Assembly (NCBI RefSeq): GCF_000169095.1
Contig: NZ_AAVU01000034.1
Span: forward strand, 54,694 to 78,693
Direction of reading: 5' to 3'
From: Lyngbya sp. PCC 8106
GTDB lineage: Bacteria > Cyanobacteriota > Cyanobacteriia > Cyanobacteriales > Microcoleaceae
DNA: 24,000 nt
Position numbers and translations under genes: made by a program. This document shows positions 652-18,734 of this stretch, in pieces. Below the pieces are notes generated by a model. It did no database searches, was not told the DNA's origin, and saw only the letters and a program-made list of their open reading frames with translations. Position 1 is the first letter of the stretch. Every line of letters starts with the position of its first letter.

Positions 652-1512
652 TTAATTTTGTAGAGGTTGAACCAATGGCATCACGCAGGACACCCGAAAA
701 CCATTGTAGTAGTTGATTTGGTCGCGCTTTGCACTATAGTTATCGTCGCGGTCAGCAGAGTGGCAGTCTTTAGCATGGTCAGCCCAGGAGCCACCCCGCA
801 CAACAGTCCTACTCTGTTTTTCCGCCAGGTTCATATTGTCATCAAACCATGCACTACCATCATCTGGCGCACCTTCATAGTTATCATGCCAATCATCTTC
901 GCACCATTCCCAAACATTGCCGTGCATATCGTGCAACCCAAAGTTATTAGGTGGAAAACTGCCAACATCGGTTGTTTGTTCTCGATATTTTCCTTTAGGA
1001 CTTTTATTATATGTGTAGTTTCCGTTATAGTTGACGAGTTCGGTTGTGATAGTTTCACCAAAATGAAATGGGGTTTTTGTTCCCGCACGACAAGCATATT
1101 CCCATTGCGCTTCGCTAGGTAATTTATATTCTCGTCCGGTTTTTACTGATAATCTTTTACAGAACTCTATTGCATCGTACCAACTAACGTTTTCAACCGG
1201 ACGATTATCTCCTTTAAATCTAGATGAATTTGGGTTTAATTCTCGCTCAATTTGCGGGTAGTTTGCTACAATTTGCCATTGGGCTTGTGTAACAGTATAT
1301 CGCCCTAAAAAAAACGGTTGAATTGTAACTTCGTGTTGGGGTCGTTCGTTATCTCGGCTTTCGAGTTCGTCTTCTGGCGACCCCATTAAAAACGTGCCAC
1401 CGGGAATGAGTACCATATCCAAACCAACACCATCTCCCAAATTTTCGGTGAAATACTGACCCGTGCGTTTGTAACGGGTAATAATAATACGTTTTTCTGT
1501 TTCGTTAGACAT
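652..1512 (-). CDS. Stand-alone FGE-sulfatase (SUMF1-like, C-type-lectin fold) domain protein
   Basis: Family-typical motifs: MVLIPGGTFLMGSP, ERPQHEV, LPSEAQWEYACRAG, HDMHGNVWEWC, RGGSW...GFRV. I prefer the ATG at 1512 (MSNETEKR) over the TTG at 1530 used in the ORF track. Lies 21 nt downstream of the preceding gene on the same strand. Confidence 0.85.
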   Translation of the reverse strand: MSNETEKRIIITRYKRTGQYFTENLGDGVGLDMVLIPGGTFLMGSPEDELESRDNERPQHEVTIQPFFLGRYTVTQAQWQIVANYPQIERELNPNSSRFKGDNRPVENVSWYDAIEFCKRLSVKTGREYKLPSEAQWEYACRAGTKTPFHFGETITTELVNYNGNYTYNKSPKGKYREQTTDVGSFPPNNFGLHDMHGNVWEWCEDDWHDNYEGAPDDGSAWFDDNMNLAEKQSRTVVRGGSWADHAKDCHSADRDDNYSAKRDQINYYNGFRVSCVMPLVQPLQN

Positions 1513-1533
1513 AGTAGAAACTTTCACCAAACG

Positions 1534-4218
1534 CTACATCGATGGCATCACGCACACCACACGAAAACCAACATCATCGTTGATGAGGTCGCGTGGAATA
1601 TAGCTGCTGCGATAGGCAGAACGACAGTTTCTTGGACAACGAGTCCAGGAACCGCCCCGCATTACCCGATTTGTATTTGTACGGTCTTCATCTATCCAAG
1701 CACTACCATCATCGGGCGCTCCTTGGTAATTTGAGTGATAGTAATCCTCGCACCATTCAAATACGTTACCGTGCATATCGTAGAGTCCCCAAACATTTGC
1801 GGGAAAATAGCCTACATCTGTTGTTTGTTCTCGATTCAATTTTGCTTTAGGGCCTGACCGATAAGAACCACTATAGGTTCCGTCTTTAGTAATTTTGTCT
1901 ATTCCTCTATAGTTAGCTAAATCTGGAGCGATCGTTTCTCCAAACTGAAATGGGGTTTGAGTCCCGGCACGAGTTGCATACTCCCACTGGGCTTCACTGG
2001 GCAGTTTATATTCCAATCCAGTATGGGCTGAAAGTCGCTTACAAAACTCTATCAGATCGTTCCAACTGACTCTTTCAACTGGGTGGTTATCTCCTTTAAA
2101 TACAGATGGATTTGGGTTTAAATAGCGTTCAATTTGTGGATACCTCGCTACAACTCGCCACTGCGCCTGAGTAATGACATATCGCCCCATGTAAAACGGT
2201 TTGAGGGTAACTTCATGTTGGGGTCGTTCATTTTCTTGACTTTCAGGTTCATCTTCTGGAGAACCCATTACAAACGTTCCGCCCGGTATTAAAACCATCT
2301 CCAAACCAATTTCATTATTTAGATGTTCAGTATAACCCCAAGCAGAAGAACGACGACGATGAATAACCCATTCTTCATTTTCCCGGCTAATGGTTGCGGT
2401 TTCAAATTCAAAACGTTCGAGAATATTGGTAATAATAGCAGGTTCGTACTCGAAGGTTTGCAAAGGGGGAAAATTAACAACTTTGGCAACTTCATACTCC
2501 CGTTCTTCCAACAGAAAATCAACCGTTTGAGTCTCCGTTTCCCCAACAGAAGACAATTCCCGACGCCCATAACGTTCGGCCAATTCTTGATAATCTCCCC
2601 CCAAACGCCGCAACACATCCAACCCAACGGTTGCAAAGGGTAACGCAGACTCGCCCAAAGCATTTTCAGACTCTTCTAAAACCGTCAACAAAGCTTCAAA
2701 ACAGTTAATCGTTCGTCCGGCTTTTTGTGCTATAATTTCAGAAAGACGGTTTAAAATCGCCGTTGTCTTGGTAATCGGAACCCCATCAATTAACAAATCT
2801 CGCACCCCGTCAAAAAACTCGTACTGACAAACCTCGCTTTCATCCGCATCGCAACGCCGCAACAAACCACTCAGCAACACTTCTGCCACATGATCCTGTT
2901 GTGCATCCGGTAAAAATTCATCCCGCAATAAATCAATAACAGGTAAACTCACAGGTATCGCCGCCATCAACCCCGCCAACTGTCTCGCCGTCCGCGAAGC
3001 CGTCGCCCGAAATAATTCTACTCGTTGTTTAGCAGTTCGTACAGGCGTTGAAACGGGTTCATCCGCCATTTCCCGCACAAAAGCTAGTTCAAACACCCGT
3101 CCTGGCGTCTGAGTCTCTCCCACACCCGCCAACACTCGCGCCCAACGTTGAAAAGAATTAGGGTCAAGTGTTATTATGGGTAAAGTTAGTAATCTGCGAT
3201 CGCTCACTTCCTCCGGTTCATCCCACTCATCCCACTCATCAACATCGGGTAAACCTTCTACATTTAACCTCGCATTCGCCAACCCCGCAACTCTCCCCCC
3301 CAACCGGACAATATAACCATTACTCAAAGCCGTGCGCGACCATAACCGTTCCGGTAACATCTGCATTAACGCTACAGGTTGGGTTTGCGACCATTGCCAC
3401 AACGTTTCGTAAATTATCCCTTGTCGCCACAACGCCGAAGTACAATCACTAACATATAATATCAAACGCCGCCCCGACGGGTCAACTAATTCTCGAATAC
3501 TGCGGGGACGCTGAGTTAAACGGTTTTCTAGACGTTCATTCCAACGGGGAAACAGTTGCACGGTCTGTTCTTCAGCTTGCAACCGCCAAGTCCGCGCTGT
3601 CCGAAACGCTCCCTGATATTCCATCAGATGTTGCAATTCGGCGATCGCACGTTTCCACAATACCGTTGTTTTAGAAGATTCTACCACTAAATCCAGGTCA
3701 AGCCAACGTTCCGGGGTTGGTCGGACGACGGGGACACAGATGTTCGTCTCAGCGAGTTGAGTCACGGTAGCTTCTTCATCGACATCAACCAAAATGCGCG
3801 ACGGTACCTTCCGCATCAACGGACGCAACGCACGCGCCAAGTCCAAACTTGTCCGAATAGCGGGGGCGGAGGGAACAGGAAAAGGTAATACTTTTTGGTC
3901 TGTTTGTGAAGGTTTAGAAGATTCTGTTGTTTGAGATATTGATGAGGATTCTTCGTTAGAATATAAATTAAAAGTGGGTTCGGATATTGAGGTATTTGTC
4001 TCATCAATTGTCTCATCAATACTATTCGTTTTTGTTGAAATTGACTCAACAATTTCTTCGGATATTTCTTCAGAAAAAACCTCACTTTCCGACTCGATAA
4101 ATTGAGCCAGCCAAAGCAGGTCAGCCAGGTCAGCCGCATCCAATTCTAGTCCCGAACGTTTTAACTGTTGCGCGAATTGTCCGATTGTTGGTCTTCGCTG
4201 CTGTTTAGGTGTTTCCAC
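1534..4218 (-). CDS. 894-aa multidomain protein: SAV_2336-type N-terminal helix, acidic Ser/Glu linker, vWA-like domain, helical middle region, C-terminal FGE-sulfatase domain
   Basis: Long uninterrupted ORF. N-terminus carries LDAADLADLLWLAQF. vWA-like strands LDLDLVVESSKT and RRLILYVSDCTS. The C-terminal ~255 aa are a close paralogue of the 652-1512 product. The start is GTG at 4218 and there is no in-frame ATG nearby. An alternative TTG at 4143 would remove the overlap with the ATPase gene but would truncate the conserved helix. Confidence 0.85.
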   Translation of the reverse strand: METPKQQRRPTIGQFAQQLKRSGLELDAADLADLLWLAQFIESESEVFSEEISEEIVESISTKTNSIDETIDETNTSISEPTFNLYSNEESSSISQTTESSKPSQTDQKVLPFPVPSAPAIRTSLDLARALRPLMRKVPSRILVDVDEEATVTQLAETNICVPVVRPTPERWLDLDLVVESSKTTVLWKRAIAELQHLMEYQGAFRTARTWRLQAEEQTVQLFPRWNERLENRLTQRPRSIRELVDPSGRRLILYVSDCTSALWRQGIIYETLWQWSQTQPVALMQMLPERLWSRTALSNGYIVRLGGRVAGLANARLNVEGLPDVDEWDEWDEPEEVSDRRLLTLPIITLDPNSFQRWARVLAGVGETQTPGRVFELAFVREMADEPVSTPVRTAKQRVELFRATASRTARQLAGLMAAIPVSLPVIDLLRDEFLPDAQQDHVAEVLLSGLLRRCDADESEVCQYEFFDGVRDLLIDGVPITKTTAILNRLSEIIAQKAGRTINCFEALLTVLEESENALGESALPFATVGLDVLRRLGGDYQELAERYGRRELSSVGETETQTVDFLLEEREYEVAKVVNFPPLQTFEYEPAIITNILERFEFETATISRENEEWVIHRRRSSAWGYTEHLNNEIGLEMVLIPGGTFVMGSPEDEPESQENERPQHEVTLKPFYMGRYVITQAQWRVVARYPQIERYLNPNPSVFKGDNHPVERVSWNDLIEFCKRLSAHTGLEYKLPSEAQWEYATRAGTQTPFQFGETIAPDLANYRGIDKITKDGTYSGSYRSGPKAKLNREQTTDVGYFPANVWGLYDMHGNVFEWCEDYYHSNYQGAPDDGSAWIDEDRTNTNRVMRGGSWTRCPRNCRSAYRSSYIPRDLINDDVGFRVVCVMPSM
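3196..3203. repeat. HIP1 palindrome GCGATCGC (one of 11 exact copies in the window)
   Basis: Exact GCGATCGC at 3196, 3641, 4858, 5492, 9260, 10579, 11204, 11530, 11627, 16328 and 16541 (start positions). HIP1 over-representation is a known cyanobacterial signature. Confidence 0.95.
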
Positions 4219-5192
4219 AGTCTATTAATAAGATTTTCTCGGTTAGTTAAATCGGAAGTTCGTTCTCGCATCACCAGATAAACGGCATTAAGAAGTTGGT
4301 CGGTTGCCAAATCTCCTTTATTGCGATCTGAACGTTTTTTCACAAACTTTTTGACAAGTTCTTTAATCAATTCTTCGGATTCTGCTATTTTTTTCGCCCC
4401 ATTTTCCTCTTGTTCAAAATGCGCTTTGACAATTTCTTCCAAACGTTTTTCGTCGGGTTCTTCCATCGTTAACCGCACGCAACGCCGTAAAAATGGCGGG
4501 GGAAAATCCCGTTCACCGTTGCTGGTTAATATCATCAATGGAAATTGACTGCAAACAACACGCCCTCCTTGAATTATTGTTGTTTTATCTTGGCTATTAT
4601 TTTTATAAGCAGTTCGGACTTCGACTGACCCTTTAATTTCTTCAATTCTCACTAATTCCGGTATTTCAAATTCTCCTTCTTCAAAAAGATAAAGTAAATC
4701 ATTGGGTAAATCAATATCGCTTTTATCTATTTCATCAACTAACAAAACACGGGGTTTATTAGAAGGTAACAACGCCGTTCCCAGTGGCCCCAAACGGATA
4801 TATTTGCCAATATTCTCGAAATTGCTTCTATCTTTTTCTCCGATATCTTGTAAACGGGCGATCGCATCATATAAATATAACCCATCTTTGAGGGTTGTTC
4901 GCGTGGTTATCGGCCAGTAGAGGACTTCTCCGAGGTTGAGTTCATGGGCGACGGCGTAGGCCAGGGAGGTTTTACCCGTTCCCGGTTTTCCTGTTACTAA
5001 TAGAGGGCGACGCAAATAAAAGGCTGCATTCACCATTTCTATTTCGGTGGGTTGGGCTTGAAAGGTAGCGCCTCTTTCCGGTTGGCGGCGATCAACTTTT
5101 CGCCAGGGGGGAGGGGGAGGAAGCTTAGAAATGGCTTTTGGGTTGGGTTTACCCGTTCCTTTGAATATGGGTTGAAATATTGGGTCATTCAT
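4161..5192 (-). CDS. MoxR-like AAA+ ATPase
   Basis: Walker A GKPGTGKTS and Walker B RVLLVDEIDK. Single AAA+ module of ~340 aa. RRPLLVTG...LAYAVAHELNLG...W.ITTRTTLKDGLYLYDAIARL matches my memory of the MoxR clade paired with vWA proteins. ATG start at 5192. Confidence 0.9.
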   Translation of the reverse strand: MNDPIFQPIFKGTGKPNPKAISKLPPPPPWRKVDRRQPERGATFQAQPTEIEMVNAAFYLRRPLLVTGKPGTGKTSLAYAVAHELNLGEVLYWPITTRTTLKDGLYLYDAIARLQDIGEKDRSNFENIGKYIRLGPLGTALLPSNKPRVLLVDEIDKSDIDLPNDLLYLFEEGEFEIPELVRIEEIKGSVEVRTAYKNNSQDKTTIIQGGRVVCSQFPLMILTSNGERDFPPPFLRRCVRLTMEEPDEKRLEEIVKAHFEQEENGAKKIAESEELIKELVKKFVKKRSDRNKGDLATDQLLNAVYLVMRERTSDLTNRENLINRLWKHLNSSEDQQSDNSRNS

Positions 5193-5194
5193 AA

Positions 5195-5231
5195 GTTTAG
5201 GAGTTAGGAGTTAGGAGTTAGGAGTTAGGAG
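5195..5231. repeat. Tandem heptamer array, GAGTTAG x4 perfect copies plus partial flanking units (STRR-like)
   Basis: Read directly: gtttag gagttag gagttag gagttag gagttag gag. Begins 3 nt upstream of the ATPase start codon, in the gap between the first two cassette genes. Confidence 0.9.
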
Positions 5232-5284
5232 GGAAGAAGTTAACACGGTTTACTGATCATTGCACGGTACTTGTTTACTGAAAA

Positions 5285-5302
5285 ACTGGTCACTGGTCAC
5301 TG
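5285..5302. repeat. Tandem heptamer ACTGGTC x2.6 (STRR-like)
   Basis: Read directly: actggtc actggtc actg. Same intergenic gap as the GAGTTAG array. Confidence 0.85.
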
Positions 5303-5320
5303 TAAACTGCCTATTACCTT

Positions 5321-6883
5321 CTAACAAGCCTCCGAGTCAAATTGTAGGGTGGGTGGCACAATATTTGGATCTTCCCAAACTAAGGTTAAATGATGACCAA
5401 TGTGGTTGTCATCTTCTGTGAGAGAATTACAACGTTCTTCTAATATACGTTCGGATAATTGGCTCACTTCGCAGTCTAAAATATTATCAATGCGATCGCT
5501 TAATTCGCTACGCCGCGACCATAAAGCAACGGGAAGGGCTGTTTTTCTGGCTACAAATTCTAATATTTTTTCGAGTTTTGTCATTTCTAAGTTTTCTAGA
5601 ATTGCCATTTCCGAAGATTTCAACGTTTGGAATAATTTGGCGGGACTTCCACAGTCAGCGCGAACAAATGTTGTTTTGGCGGTTTGTTCTATTTTAGTTT
5701 CTAATAATTGCCATTTTTGTTGCCAAAGTTTGTAATATTGTTTTCCGGTTGGGGTTAAGTTATGATGGGTTCGCATTACCAGTTTATATTGACTTCCGAG
5801 GGTTAATTCTGATTCGGTTTGGCGCTCGCTTAAATCTAAATTCAACCAATTTCTAGGGACAAATATATGAAGGGTGGGCGAGGTGTATTCTGAGTTTTCT
5901 TCTAACCAAGCTTCTAGAAAGTTCGGCAGTTCGTCAAGTGACATTGTTTCATCTTGAACCAGTGGTGAGGAGAAGTTCTTCGCATCCCACATTGAAACTC
6001 TTACTCCTTTTGAAAGTTCAGTGGGAATGACTTCTATGATTAAATGTTCGAGGGTGTTTTTGGGGGAAATATTGCGTTCTGATTTTTCTCGTATTGCTTT
6101 AATGAGTAACTTATTAAAGTTTTGTTTGGGGTTCCTAAATTCAACAAAAGTTTTAATATTATCGAATAATTCACGGGTTAAATTATCCGAAAATGTTGCT
6201 AAAAATACTGCAAATTGTGTTAACCCATCTATTTCACTCCAACCGGGATAAGAGACTTGACTCAAGTTTATAAATTTATCTAGTCTATCGCCTTCTATCC
6301 AATCTTGGGCGGGGTCGCAAAGTTGAAATGCTGCTTTAATTGCATTTTCTAAGTTGTTTTGTTCGTTATTATTCAGGCGTTCTAAATGGTCTTGTAATAA
6401 CTTATCTAAGTGTTCTAAGTTAAGTTTTTCGGGGATTAAGTTTAATTCGGCTGTCGGTGGAAAAATTGATTCACTGATTAGATTTTCCTGACTTTGAGGA
6501 CAAAGACGATCCCATGTTTTTGAAAATTGTTGTAAATTTTCTTCGATATCTTTTGACCATAAAGTCAGCGTAAAACGCCAATCTTCTAATCCCCGTTTTT
6601 GGATTCGTTCGTCTTTTAAGATGTTCAGAAAGTCATCCATCCGTTTGAGAGATTCTCGAATTTGAGCTTTTGTTAACCTGTTTTCCTGGCTATTTGTTAG
6701 GGCTTCTAATGTTCTCAGATTGGTTTCTATCCGCAGTTGGGGAGGTTTTTCTTCATCTAACCAACAGTATTTTAGATCAAAGCGATGGCTATTTTCTACC
6801 TCTCCTTTAACAAATAATAGCAGGATTTTCAATAAAGATTTGGCTCGGGCTTTGACTTTGGGGCCATAAGTTACTCTGGGCAT
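5321..6883 (-). CDS. Hypothetical 520-aa protein; candidate vWA-MoxR-associated protein (VMAP-like)
   Basis: Long ORF, first gene of the cassette. I prefer the ATG at 6883 (MPRVTYGPK) over the TTG at 6892. I can name no catalytic motif. The C-terminal third (LHIFVPRNWLNLDL, ALPVALWSRR, HHLTLVWEDPNIVPP) recalls VMAP-C-type sequences. The family call rests on memory plus genomic context only. Confidence 0.75.
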   Translation of the reverse strand: MPRVTYGPKVKARAKSLLKILLLFVKGEVENSHRFDLKYCWLDEEKPPQLRIETNLRTLEALTNSQENRLTKAQIRESLKRMDDFLNILKDERIQKRGLEDWRFTLTLWSKDIEENLQQFSKTWDRLCPQSQENLISESIFPPTAELNLIPEKLNLEHLDKLLQDHLERLNNNEQNNLENAIKAAFQLCDPAQDWIEGDRLDKFINLSQVSYPGWSEIDGLTQFAVFLATFSDNLTRELFDNIKTFVEFRNPKQNFNKLLIKAIREKSERNISPKNTLEHLIIEVIPTELSKGVRVSMWDAKNFSSPLVQDETMSLDELPNFLEAWLEENSEYTSPTLHIFVPRNWLNLDLSERQTESELTLGSQYKLVMRTHHNLTPTGKQYYKLWQQKWQLLETKIEQTAKTTFVRADCGSPAKLFQTLKSSEMAILENLEMTKLEKILEFVARKTALPVALWSRRSELSDRIDNILDCEVSQLSERILEERCNSLTEDDNHIGHHLTLVWEDPNIVPPTLQFDSEAC

Positions 6884-6909
6884 AGGGGTCAACGGATATT
6901 TTTACAAAA

Positions 6910-7103: not shown

Positions 7104-7313
7104 ATGAAAATTTTATCCATTCCGGTTTTATTAACTGTTATTATTCCTGCTGTTTGTTTATATTCTAGTCCGATGTCTCAGCCCTTTAGTCAAACTTTCA
7201 TCTGTTTCGCAAACAATAAGAACAATGTACCGCCTGAAGTTAAAGATGGGGGTTCTCGATTTTCTTCACCTCAAAAAAACTTCGATATCGATACAGATTT
7301 GATGAGAACTTAA
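7104..7313 (+). CDS. Small (69-aa) predicted secreted protein
   Basis: Strong Shine-Dalgarno GAGGAG sits 5 nt upstream of the ATG at 7104. Hydrophobic signal-like N-terminus MKILSIPVLLTVIIPAVCLYS. Divergent from the cassette. No family recognised. Confidence 0.4.
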   Translation: MKILSIPVLLTVIIPAVCLYSSPMSQPFSQTFICFANNKNNVPPEVKDGGSRFSSPQKNFDIDTDLMRT

Positions 7314-8172: not shown

Positions 8173-8330
8173 AATAATAGTGAACTGTTTTCATAGACGA
8201 GTATCCTCAGAGTTAGGAAGATAAGAACAGATAGGTTTTTCAACATCTTCGCTAACTCTTAGATACTAGCGGTGATCAAACCTAGTTATAGGTCTTAGTT
8301 ATAGGTATATATCAATATAAAATCTACTTT

Positions 8331-8708
8331 CTACCCTCTATTATATTTATCATAATGTGAGGAGTATTTTGTGATGTTCTTGATAAATTGTATATGCTCC
8401 GTAAGGTTTGAGTGAGAAACACTTCGCCGTAAAGTAGGCACAGAACCACTTTCCCACCGCCGCAAGGTAGCTTGGGAAATTTCGAGAAATTGAGCCATCT
8501 GCATGGGCTTCAAACCTAATTTCTGTCTGATTCTTTCTGGATTATTTCGTGTGTTTGGTGTGTATCCAGCAGAAATCCTCTTTAAATATTTCAGGAGCAA
8601 ATTTATTTTCTCGCCGTTTTTAGCCGAGGGTGTCTCGCCGCGAGACCACCGATAAACGGAGTTTTGGGAGATCTTCAGCAAATCTGCCAGACGTTGACAT
8701 TGTGTCAT
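8331..8708 (-). CDS. Tandem-HTH DNA-binding protein (two XRE/Cro-like helix-turn-helix repeats)
   Basis: Two internal copies of the pattern [LF]L[KE]ISQ.[ST][VL].RW..G..P: LLKISQNSVYRWSRGETP and FLEISQATLRRWESGSVP. Confidence 0.6.
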   Translation of the reverse strand: MTQCQRLADLLKISQNSVYRWSRGETPSAKNGEKINLLLKYLKRISAGYTPNTRNNPERIRQKLGLKPMQMAQFLEISQATLRRWESGSVPTLRRSVSHSNLTEHIQFIKNITKYSSHYDKYNRG

Positions 8709-9079
8709 GGTTTCTTTATATATTAATTTACTTTTCTAATATAGCAGTAATTATAATAAGTGTCAAGATATAATAAATAAAATTTTAGATCTAAATTCTG
8801 TAATGCCCGTAGGAATAAGCTTTAAGCTATTATAGATTATAATTAATTTATAATTCGGGGTGTAGTCATCTTGTCATGGACTGTTAAGACTAAGATAGAA
8901 TGAACCGGACAAAGCTGGAAATTCTCTCAACGGTTTTTCGGGTCGGGAGTGGAATCCTGACTACACTCTTATTGATATCAGATACTGCGATCACAATGAG
9001 TTGAAGCTTTTTGTACCATTGCTCAGTGGCGAGTCGGGAGATTAATTCTCCAGCTTTAAATGATTCTTTGAAAGCGAAC

Positions 9080-9946
9080 ATGAGTCCAACTATTCTGGTT
9101 ACGGGTGCATCGGGAAATGTGGGTCGAGAAGTTCTTCGCAGCTTGAAGGACAAACCCGCAACGATCCGCATTGCAAGTCGTTCTCCGGTGCCGCTTGGGG
9201 AACAACAAAACCCCAACACCGTTCACCTTGACTTTGAAGATCCAACCACCTATCTTAATGCGATCGCCGGATGCCAGTCCGTGTTTTTGCTTCGTCCCCC
9301 TGCCATCAGCAATATGAAGGCGACTCTCAACCCATTTATTGATACGGTTCGTGAAGTGGGAGTTCAACAAATCGTTTTTCTGTCGGTAGCCGGAGCCGAT
9401 GGCAATCGCATCATACCCCATTACACCGTCGAACAACACCTGCAAACTCATCCCGGCAACTGGACAATTCTGCGTCCCGGCTTCTTCGCCCAAAATCTCG
9501 GTAGCGCATACCGTTCGGATATCAGGAACGATGATCGCCTGTATCTGCCTTCGGGTCGGGGACGAGTTGCCTTTGTAGACTTGCGAGATGTCGGACAAGT
9601 TGCCGCAGATGCCCTAGTCTCATGGAAAACTCATCAAGGTAAAGCATACACCCTGACAGGCCCTCAAGCATTTTCCTTTGAGGAGGTAGCGGAGTGTCTA
9701 ACCTCGTCGTTGGGTCGTAAAATTCGTTATGACTCGGCAAGTATCTGGGGTTATGCACGCCATCTTCAACGTCAGAACCTGCCCGGGGCGCAAATTCTTG
9801 TTCAAACCCTTCTTCATCTGGGGCTGCGCTTCGGACAAGCAGAAACGGTCGATCCTACACTAGAACGGCTTTTAGGTCGAAAGCCCCTCGACGTGCGAGA
9901 CTACATTACAGACCACGCCCAGTTATGGCGCAAGGGTTCAACTTGA
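9080..9946 (+). CDS. NmrA-like / atypical SDR NAD(P)-binding protein
   Basis: Rossmann motif ILVTGASGNVGREV sits right after the ATG at 9080, which is in frame with the ORF-track start at 9011. Length and overall pattern are typical of NmrA-family proteins. Confidence 0.85.
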   Translation: MSPTILVTGASGNVGREVLRSLKDKPATIRIASRSPVPLGEQQNPNTVHLDFEDPTTYLNAIAGCQSVFLLRPPAISNMKATLNPFIDTVREVGVQQIVFLSVAGADGNRIIPHYTVEQHLQTHPGNWTILRPGFFAQNLGSAYRSDIRNDDRLYLPSGRGRVAFVDLRDVGQVAADALVSWKTHQGKAYTLTGPQAFSFEEVAECLTSSLGRKIRYDSASIWGYARHLQRQNLPGAQILVQTLLHLGLRFGQAETVDPTLERLLGRKPLDVRDYITDHAQLWRKGST

Positions 9947-11175: not shown

Positions 11176-12567
11176 ATGGAGCAATTTATTGGTCGGGTTT
11201 TAGGCGATCGCTATCGCATTGAATCGCTACTCGGTGGTCAAGTCGGTCGTAGAACTTTTCTGGCGCATGATTTACAAACGGGTTTGTCGGTTGTGGTGAA
11301 ATTACTATTATTTAGCCCGGATTTCACTTGGGAATATTTAAAACTATTTGAACGGGAAGCCTCAGTGCTGAAATCTCTGGATCATCCCGCTATTCCTCAA
11401 TATTTGGATGACTTTGAGTTGGAGATGGAATGGGGAAAGGGGTTCGCGTTCGTTCAAACTTATATTGAAGCCAAATCGTTGCTGAAGTGGATAGAATCCG
11501 GTCGTACTTTTAGCCAAGCCGATCTCAAAGCGATCGCCAAACAGCTATTAGAAATTTTGGATTATTTGCATCGCCGCCAACCCCCAGTTATTCATCGAGA
11601 TATTAAACCCAGTAATATTTTATTGGGCGATCGCAGTGGTCATAGCGTCGGGCAAGTTTATCTGATTGATTTGGGTTCGGTTCAGACGGTGGTACATGGC
11701 GGCACCCGAACTATTGTGGGTACTTATGGCTATATGCCTCCCGAACAATTTGGCGGACACACCACATCGGCTTCGGATTTGTATGCTTTGGGGGCTACCT
11801 TAATTTATCTGGCAACCGGACAGCATCCCGATCAATTACCCCAACAGCAGATGCGTATCAGGTTTGAAAATCGAGTTCACCTCAGTTTTAATATGATAGA
11901 CTGGCTAAAATCGATGACCGAGCCTAATGTTGAACTCCGATTTCAATCTGCAAAACAAGCATTGGAAGCTCTAGAAAATTCCAACTTCCGCAAAAATCAG
12001 TTGTTCGTGACCAAACCGAATGGCAGCAAGGTCATAGTTACAAAGACTGAGGAGATGTTCGAGATTTTCATTCCGCCACGAGGTTTTCATCTGTATCTAA
12101 TTTTCCTAATTCCCTTGGCAATTGTATGGAACTCTTTTACCGCGTCCTTATTGTGGGCTATGCTTTCCAATTTTAGTTGGACAGGATTGTTTTTTTATTT
12201 AGTGTTTTTCACGTTTTTTTCAAGAGCTGGTCTTTCGATGATTGCATACATTCCCTTTAGTTTATTCGGAGTCACAACACTTCGGATTACTCCGGCTAAA
12301 ATTTCTCTAATTTCAAAAATATTTGGAGTCCAATACGGCCAACCCTTTATCGGCCATCGCTCGGATATTACAAAAGTTGAACTCTCCCCGGTTTTATATC
12401 AAAAAGACTCGGATGGAAATTCGGTTAAAGTTCATCCTAAGATTAATATTTGGGTGGGGGTAAAAAAATGCACGTCAAATACTATAAACGGTTTAACTCC
12501 CCCGGAAATCGATTGGCTTGCTCACGAATTGAGTGACTGGCTTAATTTACCAATTAGCCGAGGTTAA
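11176..12567 (+). CDS. Ser/Thr protein kinase with C-terminal multi-pass membrane region
   Basis: Hanks motifs VVVKLL, HRDIKPSNILL, DLGS and GTYGYMPPEQ. Hydrophobic stretches LYLIFLIPLAIVWNSF... and GLFFYLVFFTFF... follow the kinase domain. Confidence 0.9.
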   Translation: MEQFIGRVLGDRYRIESLLGGQVGRRTFLAHDLQTGLSVVVKLLLFSPDFTWEYLKLFEREASVLKSLDHPAIPQYLDDFELEMEWGKGFAFVQTYIEAKSLLKWIESGRTFSQADLKAIAKQLLEILDYLHRRQPPVIHRDIKPSNILLGDRSGHSVGQVYLIDLGSVQTVVHGGTRTIVGTYGYMPPEQFGGHTTSASDLYALGATLIYLATGQHPDQLPQQQMRIRFENRVHLSFNMIDWLKSMTEPNVELRFQSAKQALEALENSNFRKNQLFVTKPNGSKVIVTKTEEMFEIFIPPRGFHLYLIFLIPLAIVWNSFTASLLWAMLSNFSWTGLFFYLVFFTFFSRAGLSMIAYIPFSLFGVTTLRITPAKISLISKIFGVQYGQPFIGHRSDITKVELSPVLYQKDSDGNSVKVHPKINIWVGVKKCTSNTINGLTPPEIDWLAHELSDWLNLPISRG

Positions 12568-12638: not shown

Positions 12639-15173
12639 CTATAAACCATTTCCAATTAAAATAAACGATGCCCAATAATAGGGGTGGTCGAGATGATTCC
12701 GAATATTAGCGGGAAGTTCAATTTCAGAACTGACAAAAACCATTGTACCATCAGGCGATTTCTGGCTGAAAACGGTTGAGGTATTTTTAGTAATTAAACT
12801 CTGTTGGGCGATTTGTAACGCCTCGGTTTTGCTGTATCCTTGTTGCAAGGCATTATAGAAAACATTCATCAATACTTGAGTCCCACCATCGCTAACTTTC
12901 CACAACGACGCCAGCACAGCCCTCGCCCCCTGATTTTGGAATTGATAACCGAGTCCGAGAATTTGTTCGCCGTTATTATCAAAGCCACCCAACCCCGTTT
13001 CACAGGCGCTTAAAACCACTAAATCTACATTCGATAATGACCAATTTTCCACATCTCTCAGCGTTGGATTTTCCCCCTCACCAAACACAATAAAAGATTC
13101 GGACGGGTCGCCTGGAACAAAAGCCGCATGAGTGGCAAAATGCAGTATATTATAACCATTCATTTTGGGTTTCATCGCTTCGAGGGTAAAGGCTTCATCG
13201 ACATAAGCCGTTGTATTGGTCAGGGTATTTTGTAACGCGGCTACTTCAATTCCAGCAAAGGGTAAACCCGCAAATTGTACATCCCGTTGACCTATTTTTG
13301 CCGAACGTATTAACGACTCACTCGCAAACGCCCCCGCTAAAATTTTGGGTTCGGGTTGGGGTTGGGTATCAATTTCTTCTAGGGAAGCTGCGGTAATATT
13401 ATTGACTCGAAAACGTTCGGCTAACCACCGTTTACCATCGTGCAATGCCATCAACGGAATGTAACGTAAAACCCCGTCAGGGGCATAAATAATCACCTCA
13501 GCATTGGCAGCTTTTAAGTCATCTTCGAGGGGTTCAAACAGCCACTTGTAGAGTTTTTGGGCGGGTGCAACCGCATCAATTGTTGGATCTTGTAACGCCA
13601 AACGAAACCGAACAATTGTCCGATATAATTCTTCTCGGCTAACCTCAACAGTGCGCCGCAAAGGGGGAGAATTGGGAGTGGTAATCACTAATTCTAAACG
13701 GTCTTCTAGAATTAAAGGATAGAACAGAACTGCATCCAAATCTCCTAATTTATCCCGTAAACCATCTAACGCACCCAGAGATAAAGTTTGTTCTCGTGCA
13801 TCAAAACTGAGTTTTTCAATTAATTCTCGGACTTCTGGACTACGAGCAAAGTTATTAAAATCTTTGTTAATTTCTTCTTGTAAGTTATATAATTGACTGA
13901 GGCGTTGTTCTTCAGAGGGCGTTAAATTTTGTTTCTGTTGCAGTTGGGTTAATTCTTCCCCGACTTCAATAGCGTTTTTTTGGAGTTCATTGTAACGGGC
14001 GAGAATTTCGGCTTCGGGTTGGTAAAATTCGATTCCGCCAGCAGTGTTGGCATTTCCCCGAACATTTTTGAGGTAATCTTCCAACTCCTGAACTTTCAGT
14101 AAATCCAAGACTCGCTGCGCTTCTAACACTCTATTTTCTTTTAACAATAAATCAGCTAGATTTCGATAAGTATGAGCAACATTATTAGTATACGATCTCT
14201 GCTGTTCAATAGGAAGTTCTTGAATATTTACCCGGATAGATTCGTAAACTTGGACAGCTTGCTTGTAAAACGTAACTGCTAGCCGGGATTGTTTTTGTTG
14301 AGTGAACCAGTCACCTATAAGGCTAAGTGCTTGTCCTTCTCCAGATAAATAATCAATCTCTTTAGCAATGAAAAAAGCCTGTTGATAAGATGCTAAAGCT
14401 TCTTGGTCACTTCCTAAAGCTTGATAAGTGCAACCCAAGCCTATTAAAGCATTAACTTCCCAGTAACGGTTTCTAATTTTTTTTGAAACAATAATAGATT
14501 TTTTGTAAAGTTCAAGTGCTTGTGTTGTACTTCCCAATACTCGAAAAATATTCCCCAAATCACTTAAAGCATAGGCTTCTATTTGCTTGAAATCATGTTT
14601 TTGGGCGATAGCTAAAGCCTGCTGAGAAAACCTCATAGCTTCTACATATTTTTCTAAACGAAAGTAAGCCATACCAATATCAGCTAGAAATAAAGCTTCC
14701 TCCCAATAAAAATTATTTCTTCGCGCAAGTGTCAAAGCCTCCTGATTCAATTCAATTGCTTTTTCGATCTGTCCTAGTTGTAAGTAAACATAGCCAATAA
14801 GATTAAAATTGAAGGCTTCTAAACGGTGATCTTCAATTTCTTTAGCAAGAAATAAAGATGCTTGATAAGATTCAATAGCCTTCTGTAATTGCCCAGTATC
14901 GTCGTAAGCCCATCCCAATCCATATAAAGACCAGGCTTGTCCAGAGAAATTTCCAGTCTCCTGATAAATTTTTAGTGCGGCTTGAAGAGACTCAATTGCT
15001 GCTTGATATTGATATATGCTCAATTGCTTAAAACCTTCTATACGAAGCTGTTCAGCTTTTTGTTCATCAGGGGTTTGTGCGATAACAGGCGACTCAGACA
15101 GAAGGTTCATCGGTAGAATGGGAGCCAACACACCAATGATCACCGCAACGGTTAGAGCTTTTAGATTTAGCAT
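12639..15173 (-). CDS. Exported TPR-repeat CHAT-domain (caspase-like) protease
   Basis: Many TPR-like repeats (A..A...Y..AL.I) in the N-terminal half. CHAT His/Cys dyad context ILHFATHAAF and DLVVLSACETGLG. I prefer the start at 15173 (MLNLKALTVAVIIGVLAPILP, signal-peptide-like) over the upstream ATG at 15266. Confidence 0.9.
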   Translation of the reverse strand: MLNLKALTVAVIIGVLAPILPMNLLSESPVIAQTPDEQKAEQLRIEGFKQLSIYQYQAAIESLQAALKIYQETGNFSGQAWSLYGLGWAYDDTGQLQKAIESYQASLFLAKEIEDHRLEAFNFNLIGYVYLQLGQIEKAIELNQEALTLARRNNFYWEEALFLADIGMAYFRLEKYVEAMRFSQQALAIAQKHDFKQIEAYALSDLGNIFRVLGSTTQALELYKKSIIVSKKIRNRYWEVNALIGLGCTYQALGSDQEALASYQQAFFIAKEIDYLSGEGQALSLIGDWFTQQKQSRLAVTFYKQAVQVYESIRVNIQELPIEQQRSYTNNVAHTYRNLADLLLKENRVLEAQRVLDLLKVQELEDYLKNVRGNANTAGGIEFYQPEAEILARYNELQKNAIEVGEELTQLQQKQNLTPSEEQRLSQLYNLQEEINKDFNNFARSPEVRELIEKLSFDAREQTLSLGALDGLRDKLGDLDAVLFYPLILEDRLELVITTPNSPPLRRTVEVSREELYRTIVRFRLALQDPTIDAVAPAQKLYKWLFEPLEDDLKAANAEVIIYAPDGVLRYIPLMALHDGKRWLAERFRVNNITAASLEEIDTQPQPEPKILAGAFASESLIRSAKIGQRDVQFAGLPFAGIEVAALQNTLTNTTAYVDEAFTLEAMKPKMNGYNILHFATHAAFVPGDPSESFIVFGEGENPTLRDVENWSLSNVDLVVLSACETGLGGFDNNGEQILGLGYQFQNQGARAVLASLWKVSDGGTQVLMNVFYNALQQGYSKTEALQIAQQSLITKNTSTVFSQKSPDGTMVFVSSEIELPANIRNHLDHPYYWASFILIGNGL

Positions 15174-16032
15174 GGGAGTTTCTTGAGGAGATAGTCCTTC
15201 ACTTTTAATATATGTCTCTAGTTCCAAGAGGTATGCAACCTGCACGCCGAACCGTCGAGATTTCAATCAATTATCATCGTTCTCCCTTCACAATTGGTCT
15301 AGATAAATTGAAGTTAAATAGGCTTCAAAGCGCCAAAACTTCATCCCCAATCTTGAGCGAATCAATCAAATTTTATTAGAATGAATTCGGTAGATAACCC
15401 GATGAGAAATATCTTGGGCAAATTTTTGAGCGTGGTTATTTAAACGGGACTCCCCAAATAGCGACATCACATCAATGGTATGAAAACTTTGCAGTTGCCC
15501 AATTTTACACCCGTATATATCCGTCTGATTTAACCCCACATCAGAAGAATCTCATCATCAAAAGTGGACAGATTTGCGAAAAAATGGGCTATAATCCAAA
15601 TTTATCGGCTCAATTCTAATCACTTACTAACACGCTATGTAGAATCCAAAGCCGAAGAGCAATTTTCTAGGGGAACTCGGATGAAAGCGGACTCAAACAT
15701 TCACCCGGAGCCAAACCATGTATCATCTTTCAGCAAAATTTTCCAACTTACAGTCGGCATTAAAACGACAGCAAATTAAGACTTCACGCACGCATATCAG
15801 TCGCTAATATTGCCTTCATTTTGCCTATCTATCGACAAATTAACCCAGAAATTCAACTTGTCAATCCCTCTTGAAATCGATCAACTACAAGAGATAAACA
15901 ACTGCAAAGCTTAAACAATTTAACCGGGGAATTCGGGAATTTTTTTCCTTAAAAGATTTTTTTCAAATGGCATCTATCAAATCTTTAAGGGGGTTTTAAT
16001 TTCTGCAAACTTTACTCTGTTGCATTGAAACG

Positions 16033-16555: not shown

Positions 16556-16914
16556 CAAGCCGTGCCGCTAGGCGAGTGTGGGCTTGCCCGTATCGCTGAG
16601 TATGCCAATCCAGCAAAAGAAAGGGAGGACTTGATGCTATGGAGCTTAATTGCCTCAAAACTCAAGGTTATAGAAAATTAAAGATTAAATTTAGAATTAT
16701 GGAGATCGGAACTAAAACCCCCTGTTAGATTGGGTTTAGGAAAGGATCGAGGATATAAATTTGGATGCTCGGTGCGACCGAGATCGGCTCATAATGTCTC
16801 ATTAGGTGTCAAGTTTTGGATAGAAAATGGTGAGAATAAATTTAAAGTCTATAGTTATAATGCTTGAATAGAGGAACTTTCAACGCTATCGAATGTAACC
16901 TTCGGGACGAGGGG

Positions 16915-16944
16915 GTCGCAGGTTCAAATCCTGTCATCCCGATT
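16915..16944 (+). other. 30-nt copy of the 3' end of tRNA-Pro (T arm, 3' acceptor strand, discriminator base and 2 downstream nt), not part of an intact tRNA
   Basis: GTCGCAGGTTCAAATCCTGTCATCCCGATT is identical to the reverse complement of 18659-18688, i.e. the 3' end of the full tRNA-Pro gene plus 2 nt. The upstream sequence does not fold into D or anticodon arms. Confidence 0.85.
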
Positions 16945-17150
16945 CTGCCGTTAGGCAGAACAGCAAGTGAACTACCTACGCAGACGCTTCGCTTTCTAGC
17001 GTAGGCTTCCAGCTTCTTGATCAACCTTGGTCGAAGCATCATTAGATTGATCATTGATCGGAAGTTGCCGCACAGAGGACTTTCGTCCTTTGGTTGGTCT
17101 TACACTTTCTCCACTGGCAGTCACCCCCGTCCCAGGGGCGAGGAATTGTC
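16943..17150 (-). ncRNA. Predicted TnpB omega-RNA (reRNA) scaffold overlapping the tnpB 3' end and right end
   Basis: Call by analogy with characterised TnpB systems. Hairpins TTCTGCC-gtta-GGCAGAA (16943-16960) and CCTACGC...GCGTAGG (16975-17005) lie at or after the stop codon. The 5' limit is a guess. Confidence 0.3.
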
Positions 17151-18410: not shown

Positions 18411-18660
18411 GCTTCTCGCTGTGAAGCTAATTTAACCAACGTCAAGTTACACTTGATTCCCATTTCTATCCAAAATCTATCCAATAGAATATCTTTAATT
18501 ACCCTCAAAAATCAACATTGACTCAATCATCAACGATGGTAAAACTCTCGTTCTGTCAAACCCACATATTGACAAATCTTGCATCAATGGATTAGTACAG
18601 GATGCAAGTTTGATGCAACGGATACTGTATATCCTCGAAAATTAAATAGTTTTACCCTAA

Positions 18661-18734
18661 TCGGGATGACAGGATTTGAACCTGCGACATCCTGCTCCCA
18701 AAGCAGGCGCGCTACCAAGCTGCGCTACATCCCG
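18661..18734 (-). tRNA. tRNA-Pro (anticodon UGG)
   Basis: Manual cloverleaf: acceptor CGGGATG/CATCCCG, D arm GCGC-agcttggta-GCGC, anticodon arm CCTGC-ttTGGga-GCAGG, variable loop atgtc, T arm GCAGG-ttcaaat-CCTGT, discriminator A. CCA is not encoded. Confidence 0.95.

What the first reader, a model, noticed from the sequence alone, without database searches (positions are those of the whole stretch)
652..6892. Four-gene MoxR / vWA-like-FGS / VMAP-like cassette: candidate NTP-driven conflict or sensing system with no recognisable effector
Seen in sequence: four co-directional minus-strand genes.
- A 520-aa unknown protein (6883-5321), followed by a 128-nt repeat-filled gap.
- A MoxR-type AAA+ ATPase (5192-4161; Walker A GKPGTGKTS, Walker B LLVDEIDK), whose 3' end overlaps the next gene by 58 nt.
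- An 894-aa fusion protein (4218-1534), followed by a 21-nt gap.
- A stand-alone FGE-sulfatase paralogue (1512-652).
The fusion protein reads as an N-terminal helix with LDAADLADLLWLAQF (the motif I associate with the SAV_2336 N-terminal domain), a Glu/Ser-rich disordered linker, a vWA-like segment with degenerate MIDAS positions (LDLDLVVESSKT ... RRLILYVSDCTS), a long helical middle, and an FGE-sulfatase (C-type-lectin-fold) domain. The first protein has no catalytic motif. Its C-terminal third (LHIFVPRNWLNLDL, ALPVALWSRR, HHLTLVWEDPNIVPP) resembles what I remember of VMAP-C.
Established knowledge: MoxR plus vWA pairs act as remodelling couples. As I recall, MoxR-vWA-VMAP triads were proposed from comparative genomics (Aravind and colleagues, 2020) to be anti-invader conflict systems, and I know of no experimental characterisation.
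Inference: this is a variant lacking the usual protease, TIR or nuclease effector, with two FGS modules serving as sensor or output. Its mechanism is therefore open.
Basis: partly seen in the sequence, partly recalled or inferred. Interest (0 to 1): 0.85.

Follow-up and report, generated by a model that had tools for sequence, protein, structure and literature searches.

The report
Known cyanobacterial MoxR–vWA–VMAP immune-like cassette
This four-gene cassette from Lyngbya sp. PCC 8106 is a standard member of a family of putative bacterial immune systems predicted in 2020, with lectin-like receptor domains whose tips look retroelement-diversified, so it is not a new effector-less variant.

Summary
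The claim of novelty fails.

- **Missed adaptor:** the "unknown" N-terminus of the 520-aa protein is EAD4, an adaptor domain. In VMAP proteins an EAD takes the place of the protease or TIR head, and the model is that it recruits an effector in trans.
- **Published architecture:** vWA fused to FGS is the standard cyanobacterial form of the VMAP ternary system (Kaur et al. 2020; Doré et al. 2024).
- **Missed variable tips:** both FGS domains end in DGR-type variable regions (NNY codons on a conserved scaffold, TvpA-like fold, FGE cysteine pair lost).
- **Missing retroelement:** a related locus carries the full Avd–RT–template cassette. PCC 8106 and eight relatives have none within ±10 kb, lack the 3′ target hairpin, and are absent from a published list of cyanobacterial DGRs. 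The targets are probably orphaned.
- **Cassette exchange:** within the Limnoraphis clade the FGS module is exchanged by recombination between the long gene and the neighbouring short FGS gene.

The function is still untested by experiment. Verdict: a new member of a known kind, of moderate to low interest.

The parts
5321..6883 (-). VMAP gene (EAW35099; 520 aa from the ATG at 6883, with an alternative TTG at 6892). Layout: N-terminal EAD4, variable helical middle, C-terminal VMAP-C.
   Evidence: ORF; Pfam EAD4 and VMAP-C; identity to Lyngbya sp. PCC 8106 protein
6509..6865 (-). EAD4 adaptor domain (residues 10-128 of the 523-aa reading)
   Evidence: PF19959, E 6.2e-33, 114 bits against a cut-off of 27. 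The family mostly heads NB-ARC/NACHT STAND NTPases.
5366..6001 (-). VMAP-C domain (residues 298-509)
   Evidence: PF20028, E 2.2e-27, 96.9 bits against a cut-off of 27
5193..5320 (.). 128-nt VMAP-MoxR spacer made of heptamer tandem repeats. It is a lineage-specific insertion and not part of the ancestral operon.
   Evidence: TRF arrays at 5197-5231 and 5285-5302. The same junction is only 3-9 nt in L002, L003, L125 and L126.
4161..5192 (-). MoxR-type AAA+ ATPase (EAW35098), with Walker A at residues 68-75 and Walker B LLVDEIDK
   Evidence: AAA_5 34.4 bits (cut-off 22) and AAA 30.7 bits (cut-off 21.2); RefSeq name 'MoxR family ATPase'; sequence read
4161..4218 (-). 58-nt dual-coding overlap between the MoxR 3' end and the GTG start of the long gene; probable translational coupling
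   Evidence: GTG start, overlap length and both protein frames are conserved in 8 loci
1534..4218 (-). Long sensor protein (EAW35097, L8106_27464; 894 aa). Layout: N-terminal helix, disordered Glu/Ser linker, vWA-like Rossmannoid domain, helical region, beta-hairpin extension, FGS/C-type-lectin domain.
   Evidence: structure models
2713..4137 (-). SAV_2336 N-terminal module (residues 28-502), including the vWA-like core (about residues 173-310; E180-S-S-K-T after strand 1, D258 after strand 4)
   Evidence: NF041121, 421.9 bits against a cut-off of 200. Model pLDDT 85.8; best PDB match NorD, the vWA partner of NorQ, probability 0.99, E 4e-3. E180, S182 and D258 are (nearly) invariant in 76-89 homologues.
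1555..2301 (-). FGS (FGE-sulfatase / C-type-lectin fold) domain of the long protein
   Evidence: PF03781, E 1.9e-55. Fold matches PvdO, TvpA (2y3c, rmsd 2.9 A) and FGEs.
1546..1659 (-). DGR-type variable region of the long gene (RGGSW-TRCPRN-CRSAYR-SSYIPRDLINDDV-GFRV)
   Evidence: NNY codons between conserved scaffold codons. A different sequence in nearly every Limnoraphis-clade strain. K/E/Q/M/W at 3 of 158 variable positions against 23% in the FGS body, p = 1e-13; third-position pyrimidine in 52 of 60 codons.
652..1512 (-). Stand-alone short FGS gene (EAW35096; 286 aa): a spare lectin cassette
   Evidence: PF03781, E 9e-57. In another strain its 3' part, variable region included, sits on the long gene.
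679..798 (-). Variable-region-like segment of the short gene (RGGSW-ADHAKD-CHSADR-DDNYSAKRDQINYYN-GFRV). It is frozen: identical but for one residue in L. robusta Tam1.
7104..7313 (+). Divergent 69-aa ORF with a hydrophobic N-terminus. It is syntenic with the cassette across the clade; whether it belongs to the system is unproven.
   Evidence: tblastn 88% (L127), 85% (L002) and 46% (L003). A 67-69-aa gene is called at the same position in L127, L129, L130 and L131.

Best explanation
The locus is a classical VMAP ternary conflict system of the cyanobacterial vWA-FGS subtype, from Lyngbya sp. PCC 8106 (Limnoraphis clade).

Shown here:
- The domain architecture of all four proteins.
- Tight operon coupling.
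- Conservation of the triad in other cyanobacteria.
- The FGS domains are non-enzymatic, TvpA-like lectin folds whose C-terminal tips carry the codon signature of adenine-templated (DGR) diversification.
- A related locus has the full Avd-RT-template cassette aimed at the same kinds of targets.
- In the Limnoraphis clade no RT, Avd or template lies near the locus.
- The FGS module on the vWA scaffold has been exchanged by recombination with the adjacent short FGS gene.

Inferred mechanism, following Dore et al. 2024:
1. The hypervariable lectin tip of the long protein binds an invader-derived molecule.
2. The signal passes through its vWA-like module to the MoxR AAA+ ring, which uses ATP to remodel the complex.
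3. The remodelled complex engages VMAP-C.
4. The VMAP's N-terminal EAD4 then recruits, by homotypic EAD4-EAD4 contact, an effector encoded elsewhere in the genome. Going by what EAD4 is fused to elsewhere, this is most likely an NB-ARC/NACHT STAND NTPase.
5. The result is growth arrest or death of the infected cell in the filament.

The short FGS gene acts as a spare receptor cassette. In PCC 8106 the receptors are probably no longer being mutated, i.e. they are orphaned DGR targets.
For: Family assignment: (EAD4, VMAP-C, AAA_5, SAV_2336_NTERM, FGE-sulfatase, all above curated cut-offs) and the published descriptions.

Conservation: the same gene order in L002-L004 and L125-L131. The 58-nt overlap is conserved. 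The N-terminal part of the long gene shows variable sites at codon positions 1/2/3 of 29/23/84, typical of purifying selection.

Receptor nature of FGS: TvpA and PvdO are the top fold matches. The first FGE catalytic cysteine position falls inside the variable hexamer. Column entropy peaks in the last 40 residues. NNY-codon signature with p = 1e-13.

DGR link: in L126 the template at 8307-8402 differs from two variable regions at 16-17 positions, with 0-1 of them at non-adenines, and that locus is ordered short FGS-Avd-RT-short FGS-Trypco1-Trypsin/VMAP-MoxR-vWA/FGS.

Orphan status: no RT, Avd or template in the window or within +-10 kb in 8 relatives (and the locus calls above). No 3' IMH/hairpin element of the kind that follows the L126 targets. 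No Lyngbya or Limnoraphis entry in the published table of cyanobacterial DGR RTs.

Recombination: the L131 long gene is long-type at its 5' end (91-93%) and 98% identical to the PCC 8106 short gene across the variable region, with no downstream short gene. Third-position divergence is 48% in the FGS body against 13.5% in the N-terminal part.

EAD4 partners: of 64 EAD4 proteins, 27 carry NB-ARC and 15 carry NACHT.

Expression support from a relative: CHAT, MoxR, VWA and a DGR target are co-expressed in Nostoc punctiforme.
Against: No experiment anywhere shows that a VMAP system defends against anything; the literature is computational plus one co-expression study. PADLOC has no model that hits. 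No second EAD4 gene was found in the window or within +-10 kb in seven EAD4-type loci, and I could not search the rest of the PCC 8106 genome, so the effector is unidentified. The vWA assignment rests on a weak structural match (E 4e-3, low TM-score) with no sequence-level hit to any solved vWA domain, and the first MIDAS acidic residue is Glu rather than Asp. The direction of signal flow (FGS as sensor, VMAP/EAD4 as output) is one of two published conjectures. Orphan status is inferred from absence nearby and from a 2020 survey, not from a whole-genome search.
Confidence: 0.55

Rival explanations
1. Original Kaur et al. 2020 model. The variable middle of the VMAP senses the invader and MoxR-vWA sets the threshold. 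The C-terminal FGS of the vWA protein is the effector: a 'neutralising' binder that sequesters invader molecules, possibly after proteolytic release. EAD4 brings in the processing peptidase.
For: This is the published proposal for the family. The VMAP middle region (residues about 130-297) matches no profile and is variable. Caspase-family genes lie a few kb upstream of the cassette in L. robusta (L127, L130), and a TPR-CHAT gene lies 5.7 kb upstream in the window.
Against: This VMAP has no peptidase. None of the nearby caspase or CHAT proteins carries EAD4. EAD4 is fused mainly to STAND NTPases, not peptidases. A hypervariable lectin tip is more naturally a recognition surface, as in TvpA and Mtd. 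VMAP is far more conserved between strains (20 members in one 90% cluster) than the long protein (4 members), which fits the long protein as the diversifying sensor.
Confidence: 0.2
2. The two FGS genes are still live 'remote' targets of a DGR encoded elsewhere in the PCC 8106 genome. Receptor diversification is then ongoing and not fossil.
For: Remote targets are common in cyanobacteria: 76 of 121 diversified CLec genes in one survey, and Kaur et al. note templates 'elsewhere in the genome'. The long variable region differs in almost every strain while the N-terminal 620 residues are 89-94% identical. P0187 differs from PCC 8106 only in the 3' part of the variable region, as expected for partial retrohoming.
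Against: No Lyngbya or Limnoraphis RT appears in the 2020 table of cyanobacterial DGR RTs. The IMH-like motif and hairpin that follow the L126 targets are absent. Third codon positions inside the variable region also differ between strains, and the whole FGS body is much more diverged than the N-terminal part, which points to cassette replacement more than in-situ mutagenesis. The short gene's variable region is frozen between strains. My genome-wide template scan failed technically, so this rival is not excluded.
Confidence: 0.25
3. The cassette is not a defence system. It could be a regulatory or signal-transduction module, or a MoxR-vWA chaperone pair that matures or assembles a cellular complex, with the FGS domains binding an endogenous ligand.
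For: Characterised MoxR-vWA pairs (RavA-ViaA, NorQ-NorD, CoxD-CoxE, chelatases) are assembly or insertion chaperones, and NorD is the best structural match. Cyanobacterial DGR targets have also been interpreted as tuning regulatory pathways (PMC7517822). No defence-system model hits.
Against: VMAP-C and EAD4 are known only from conflict-type contexts. EAD4 partners are Apaf-1-like STAND NTPases. Strain-specific hypervariation, module swapping and flanking transposases are the evolutionary marks of conflict loci, not of housekeeping chaperones.
Confidence: 0.1

Closest known systems
Classical VMAP ternary system, cyanobacterial vWA-FGS subtype (Kaur, Burroughs, Iyer & Aravind 2020, eLife 9:e52696)
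   Same: A VMAP-C protein, a MoxR AAA+ ATPase and a vWA-type protein with a C-terminal FGS domain, in the order VMAP-MoxR-vWA. An EAD sits at the VMAP N-terminus. FGS is always the C-terminal module. The host is a filamentous cyanobacterium.
   Different: No second EAD4 gene lies next to the cassette. No DGR lies next to it, whereas about 80% of cyanobacterial examples are reported as DGR-linked. The first MIDAS acidic residue is Glu.
DGR-linked MoxR/vWA/CLec loci of multicellular bacteria (Dore et al. 2024 PNAS; cyanobacterial RT clade 5E), represented here by locus L126
   Same: A long vWA-CLec target plus short CLec-only targets beside a MoxR gene. The same variable-region scaffold (GGSW..P..CRSA.R....GFRV). 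The long protein is 57-60% identical and the VMAP 47% identical to the L126/L125 proteins.
   Different: L126 has Avd, RT, a template and a conserved 3' IMH/hairpin after each target, and its VMAP carries Trypsin with a Trypco1 partner. PCC 8106 has none of these and carries EAD4.
Treponema denticola TvpA and other DGR variable proteins with the C-type-lectin/FGE fold
   Same: The fold of the FGS domains (2y3c, rmsd 2.9 A over 322 columns). The variable residues lie at the C-terminal end. The all-beta N-terminal extension is present.
   Different: TvpA is a surface lipoprotein. These proteins have no signal peptide region detected and sit on a cytoplasmic vWA-MoxR scaffold.
NorQ-NorD, CoxD-CoxE and RavA-ViaA MoxR-vWA chaperone couples
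   Same: An AAA+ MoxR-type ATPase is encoded next to, and presumably acts on, a vWA-type partner. NorD is the best structural match for the N-terminal module.
   Different: Those couples mature metalloenzymes or respiratory complexes. They have no VMAP, no EAD and no hypervariable lectin module.

Membership tests
VMAP ternary system (Kaur et al. 2020) | A protein with the VMAP-C domain | tested here: met
   PF20028, E 2.2e-27, 96.9 bits against a cut-off of 27, residues 298-509
VMAP ternary system (Kaur et al. 2020) | An adjacent MoxR-clade AAA+ ATPase | tested here: met
   AAA_5 and AAA above cut-off, intact Walker A and B; RefSeq name 'MoxR family ATPase'. Clade-specific helix-2 insert not examined; no PDB sequence hit.
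VMAP ternary system (Kaur et al. 2020) | A vWA-domain protein with a variable C-terminal module, with two acidic residues at the ends of core strands 1 and 4 | tested here: inconclusive
   SAV_2336_NTERM at 422 bits. The order of secondary-structure elements is that of a vWA domain. The best PDB match is NorD, with probability 0.99 but E 4e-3 and a low TM-score. There is no Pfam VWA hit and no PDB sequence hit. E180 (not Asp) and D258 are conserved.
VMAP ternary system (Kaur et al. 2020) | Conserved three-gene neighbourhood | tested here: met
   The same order is found in L002-L004 and L125-L131, with the 58-nt overlap conserved
VMAP ternary system (Kaur et al. 2020) | The VMAP N-terminus carries a peptidase, a nucleotide-signal enzyme or an EAD | tested here: met
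   EAD4, PF19959, E 6.2e-33; the nearest non-EAD4 VMAPs carry Trypsin_2
EAD coupling principle | [quoted passage not shown] | tested here: not met
   No second EAD4 in the 24-kb window or within +-10 kb in seven EAD4-type loci. The 'elsewhere in the genome' option could not be tested: no Limnoraphis partner was identified among the closest EAD4 proteins.
Diversity-generating retroelement target | A C-terminal CLec/FGS domain with a localised hypervariable region carrying the AAY-template (NNY codon) signature | tested here: met
   (3 of 158 against 23% non-NNY residues, p = 1e-13; third-position pyrimidine in 52 of 60 codons)
Diversity-generating retroelement target | A cognate template repeat differing from the variable region only at adenines | tested here: not met
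   None in the window or in L001-L004. The positive control in L126 works. The genome-wide scan failed technically, and the JGI metagenome scan found nothing.
Diversity-generating retroelement target | A DGR reverse transcriptase and Avd in the locus or genome | tested here: not met
   Absent from the window and from +-10 kb in 8 relatives. No Lyngbya or Limnoraphis in the published RT table. A whole-genome search was not possible with these tools.
Diversity-generating retroelement target | A 3' IMH and hairpin/cruciform after the variable region | tested here: not met
   The L126 targets share GAGGACTCTT plus the hairpin CTCGCCGTCAGGCGAG. Neither PCC 8106 cassette has a perfect hairpin of 6 bp or more within 130 nt.
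Formylglycine-generating enzyme (FGE/SUMF1) | The catalytic, copper-binding cysteine pair | tested here: not met
   In the alignment to T. curvata FGE the first Cys aligns with a variable position (D in the short protein, R in the long one). Only the second Cys is kept, as a scaffold residue.

The most novel reading that the evidence does not exclude
In the Limnoraphis/Lyngbya PCC 8106 lineage the system may have lost its retroelement. It would then vary its receptor by recombination, swapping pre-diversified lectin cassettes from the neighbouring short FGS genes onto the vWA scaffold, much like silent-cassette antigenic variation. Its output would run through EAD4 to Apaf-1-like STAND NTPases, coupling a MoxR-vWA sensor to an apoptosome-type executioner.
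Probability: 0.2. Interest if true: 0.55.

Novelty: new member of a known kind. Interest (0 to 1): 0.3.

Why it matters
VMAP ternary systems are a large class of putative immune or programmed-death systems in multicellular bacteria. They have only been predicted, never tested. They are of interest because their parts resemble animal and plant innate immunity: adaptor domains, STAND NTPases, caspases and hypervariable receptors.

This locus does not change that picture. It is nevertheless a compact, culturable example. PCC 8106 is an axenic strain with a genome sequence, and the cassette has a simple four-gene layout and an adaptor in place of a built-in effector. That makes it usable for asking what EAD4 recruits and what the lectin tip binds. 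The contrast between DGR-linked relatives and this apparently DGR-less clade, together with the documented cassette swap, gives a natural comparison of two ways of varying a receptor.

Tried and rejected
1. Genome-wide template search with a 'variable-region base or A' IUPAC pattern.
2. Scaffold-anchored variable-region/template pattern against JGI metagenomes: 0 hits.
3. Using the L126 RT to find a Limnoraphis RT: about 8000 homologues, and none of the top 120 is labelled Limnoraphis, so this is unresolved.
4. Looking up the closest non-VMAP EAD4 proteins for a Lyngbya or Limnoraphis origin: none.
5. PADLOC: only P-loop noise.
6. Rfam and tRNA scans: only tRNA-Pro, unrelated to the cassette.
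7. Promoter and terminator scan: counts no higher than in shuffled sequence, so no operon boundaries could be drawn.
8. phmmer of the ATPase and a profile of the long protein against PDB sequences: no ATPase or vWA hits.
10. Idea that the short gene's A-rich variable region could itself be the template for the long gene: rejected. The lengths differ by two codons and there are more than 15% non-adenine violations.
11. Idea that the nearby TPR-CHAT protein (window) or the caspases (L127) are EAD4-tagged effectors: rejected. None contains EAD4.
12. Supplements of Kaur et al. and Wu et al. did not hold searchable lists naming this strain.


Full report
**Observation.** They are 6883/6892-5321 (520/523 aa), 5192-4161 (343 aa), 4218-1534 (894 aa, GTG start) and 1512/1530-652 (286/292 aa). 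The 128-nt spacer between the first two genes consists largely of two heptamer arrays. The 58-nt overlap between the ATPase gene and the long gene is genuine. In all eight related loci examined, the GTG start, the overlap length and both overlapping protein frames (…LWKHLNSSEDQQSD… and VETxxQQRRPTIGQFA…) are conserved. By contrast the 128-nt spacer is a lineage-specific repeat insertion, because the same junction is 3-9 nt in L002, L003, L125 and L126. An exact protein look-up identifies the source as Lyngbya sp. PCC 8106, proteins EAW35096-EAW35099. Public databases already name these 'MoxR family ATPase' and 'VMAP-C domain-containing protein'.

**Domain content.**
- Protein 1 has VMAP-C (E 2e-27).
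- Protein 2 is an AAA_5/AAA ATPase with intact Walker motifs.
- Protein 3 matches NCBIfam SAV_2336_NTERM at 422 bits (cut-off 200) over residues 28-502, followed by FGE-sulfatase (E 2e-55).
- Protein 4 is FGE-sulfatase alone (E 9e-57).

PADLOC has nothing for any of the four proteins.

**The vWA question.** Pfam gives no VWA hit, and a profile of 89 homologues finds no vWA protein among PDB sequences. A model of residues 112-560 is confident (pLDDT 85.8, pTM 0.81). Its elements from residue 174 follow the canonical vWA order: β1-α1-β2-β3-…-β4-α4-β5-α5-β6. E180-S-S-K-T follows β1 and D258 follows β4, and both positions are (nearly) invariant in 76-89 homologues. The best solved-structure match is NorD, the vWA partner of the MoxR-type ATPase NorQ. 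The Foldseek probability is 0.99, but E is only 4e-3 and the TM-score is low. Classical vWA domains follow, interleaved with PRTases. I therefore call this module vWA-like, with weak to moderate structural support.

**The FGS domains are receptors, not enzymes.** The full-length model's FGS domain matches PvdO, the DGR variable protein TvpA (2y3c, rmsd 2.9 Å) and the FGEs. In alignment with FGE, the first of the two catalytic cysteines falls on a variable position, and only the second survives as a scaffold residue. Both FGS domains end in the pattern GGSW-x6-C-RSA-x-R-x12-14-GFRV, where the x codons are almost all NNY. Across seven cassettes from five loci, and across 76 homologues, column entropy peaks in these last ~40 residues. 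In eight Limnoraphis-clade orthologues, only 3 of 158 variable positions hold residues that NNY codons cannot encode (K, E, Q, M, W). The figure is 450 of 1940 in the FGS body (Fisher p = 1e-13). Third codon positions are pyrimidines in 52 of 60 variable-region codons, against about 51% in the body. This is the footprint of adenine-specific mutagenesis of AAY codons by a diversity-generating retroelement (DGR).

**Link to a real DGR.** VMAP homologues at 47% identity carry Trypsin_2 in place of EAD4. One such locus, L126, has the complete archetype: short FGS – bAvd – RT – short FGS – Trypco1 – Trypsin/VMAP – MoxR – vWA/FGS. My 'variable-region base or A' test finds its template at 8307-8402. 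The template differs from two variable regions at 16-17 positions, with 0-1 of those at non-adenines. This serves as a positive control. All three L126 targets are followed by a conserved IMH-like motif and the GC-rich hairpin CTCGCCGTCAGGCGAG.

**No retroelement here.**
- The window has no RT, Avd or template.
- Neither do the ±10-kb surroundings in L. robusta CS-951, Tam1, CCNP1315, a MAG, Capilliphycus salinus, a JGI contig and two more distant EAD4-type loci.
- The PCC 8106 cassettes lack the 3′ IMH/hairpin element.
- The published table of all cyanobacterial DGR RTs (58 DGRs, 52 genomes) contains no Lyngbya or Limnoraphis entry. Its table of CLec homologues lists exactly two PCC 8106 proteins with adjacent accessions, most likely these two genes.

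I could not search the whole genome. My one genome-collection scan was wasted on a badly designed pattern, and a better pattern found nothing in the JGI metagenomes. Orphan status is therefore probable, not proven.

**How the receptors vary in this clade.** Between PCC 8106, Tam1 and a MAG, the first 620 codons of the long gene show 29/23/84 variable sites at codon positions 1/2/3, which is ordinary purifying selection. The 25 variable-region codons show 14/16/13. However, the whole FGS body is much more diverged than the N-terminal part (third positions 48% against 13.5%), and it is mosaic between strains. In the JGI contig L131, the long gene is long-type for the first ~120 nt of the FGS region (91-93%). 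It then becomes short-type, reaching 98% identity to the PCC 8106 short gene across the variable region, and no downstream short gene remains. So recombination between the tandem cassettes has replaced the receptor module at least once. The short gene's own variable region is frozen between PCC 8106 and Tam1, and one upstream-cassette variable region is shared between Capilliphycus and L. robusta CCNP1315. P0187 differs from PCC 8106 only in the 3′ part of the variable region, which would fit partial retrohoming. My reading is that the variable regions were written by a DGR in the past, and that present-day variation in this clade comes largely from cassette exchange.

**The 'missing effector'.** Kaur et al. 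define EADs as adaptors placed on the VMAP N-terminus, with a second copy fused to an effector encoded next door or elsewhere in the genome. An exhaustive search finds about 315 EAD4 representative clusters, almost always with the domain at the N-terminus. Of 64 longer members, 27 carry NB-ARC, 15 carry NACHT, and many carry TPR or HEAT repeats. No second EAD4 lies within the window or within ±10 kb in seven EAD4-type loci. The nearby TPR-CHAT protein (window) and the caspases (L127, L130) lack EAD4. No Limnoraphis partner could be identified. The partner is therefore inferred, not shown.

**Mechanism.** I adopt the Doré et al. version. The hypervariable lectin tip of the vWA protein senses the invader, MoxR acts as an ATP-driven switch, and VMAP is the output, here through EAD4-mediated recruitment of a STAND-type effector. 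Supporting points are that the long protein diversifies far faster than VMAP (4 against 20 members per 90% cluster), the TvpA-like fold, and the repertoire of EAD4 partners. The original Kaur model (VMAP senses, FGS is a neutralising effector) and a non-defence chaperone or regulatory role remain possible. No VMAP system has been tested experimentally. The closest data are co-expression of CHAT, MoxR, VWA and a DGR target in Nostoc punctiforme, with adenine-specific hypermutation seen there.

**Comparison and novelty.** The locus meets the defining features of the classical VMAP ternary system. The vWA feature is supported only weakly at the structural level, and the adjacent-EAD feature is not met. 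vWA-FGS fusions are the standard cyanobacterial form: more than 100 homologue clusters carry this architecture, with rare GUN4, pentapeptide or methyltransferase alternatives. The locus is thus a new member of a known kind. The modestly new points are its apparent detachment from any DGR and the evidence for cassette swapping.

**Verdict.** Interest 0.3.

Noticed in passing
window 7104-7313 (+): A 69-aa ORF with a hydrophobic N-terminal segment, transcribed divergently from the VMAP gene. It is conserved at the same position in L127 (88%), L002 (85%), L003 (46%), L129, L130 and L131. It has no Pfam match. It could be a small membrane or secreted partner, or merely syntenic.
   Followed up: partly
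window 5193-5320: The heptamer tandem arrays (5 x TTAGGAG, 2.6 x ACTGGTC) resemble cyanobacterial STRR repeats. They have been inserted into what is a 3-9-nt junction in relatives. Tam1 has a different mix of related heptamers at the same site, so the array is evolving quickly.
   Followed up: partly
window 16900-16944, 16996-18309, 18659-18734: An IS605-type TnpB gene (437 aa) is bracketed by a 45-nt inverted repeat. One arm is the 3' half of tRNA-Pro(TGG) (18661-18734) and the other is a partial tRNA copy. This suggests insertion next to, and partial duplication of, the tRNA gene.
   Followed up: no
window 20618-20963: A 173-nt unit is duplicated in tandem at 99% identity. It spans the end of an unannotated 241-aa ORF (19897-20622) and the start of an alpha/beta-hydrolase gene (20908-21810).
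   Followed up: no
window 21966-23702: A complete IS200/IS605 pair: Y1 transposase TnpA (134 aa, minus strand) and TnpB (440 aa, plus strand). A further TnpB/TnpA pair lies just beyond the photolyase gene in the Logan contig L001. The cassette sits in a transposon-rich region.
   Followed up: no
window 12639-15266 (-) and 11176-12567 (+): A TPR-CHAT (caspase-like) protein of 875 aa, and a Ser/Thr kinase with a hydrophobic C-terminal half, lie 4.3-8.4 kb upstream of the VMAP gene. Neither carries EAD4. In L. robusta two Peptidase_C14 genes, each paired with an unknown gene of about 310 aa, occupy the corresponding upstream region (L127 145-4880).
   Followed up: partly
L004 11617-12819: In one relative (GCA_038530755.1) a glutathione S-transferase gene is inserted between the VMAP and MoxR genes, while the MoxR/long-gene overlap is kept. 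VMAP-MoxR coupling is therefore less constrained than MoxR-vWA coupling.
   Followed up: no
L126 6717-6830, 9479-9590, 15544-15650 and template 8307-8402: All three FGS targets of this metagenomic DGR share a conserved 3' element of about 100 nt: an IMH-like GTGTGGGAGGTGCCGAGGACTCTT, then the hairpin CTCGCCGTCAGGCGAG and a T-run. The template diverges from them right after GCCGAG. The middle target (8595-9491) ends in a degenerate variable region.
   Followed up: partly
L125 7122-9535: In a Trypsin/VMAP relative, the two short FGS genes flank a 117-aa ORF where L126 has Avd-RT. No RT gene is called there, so this may be an intermediate stage of DGR loss.
   Followed up: no
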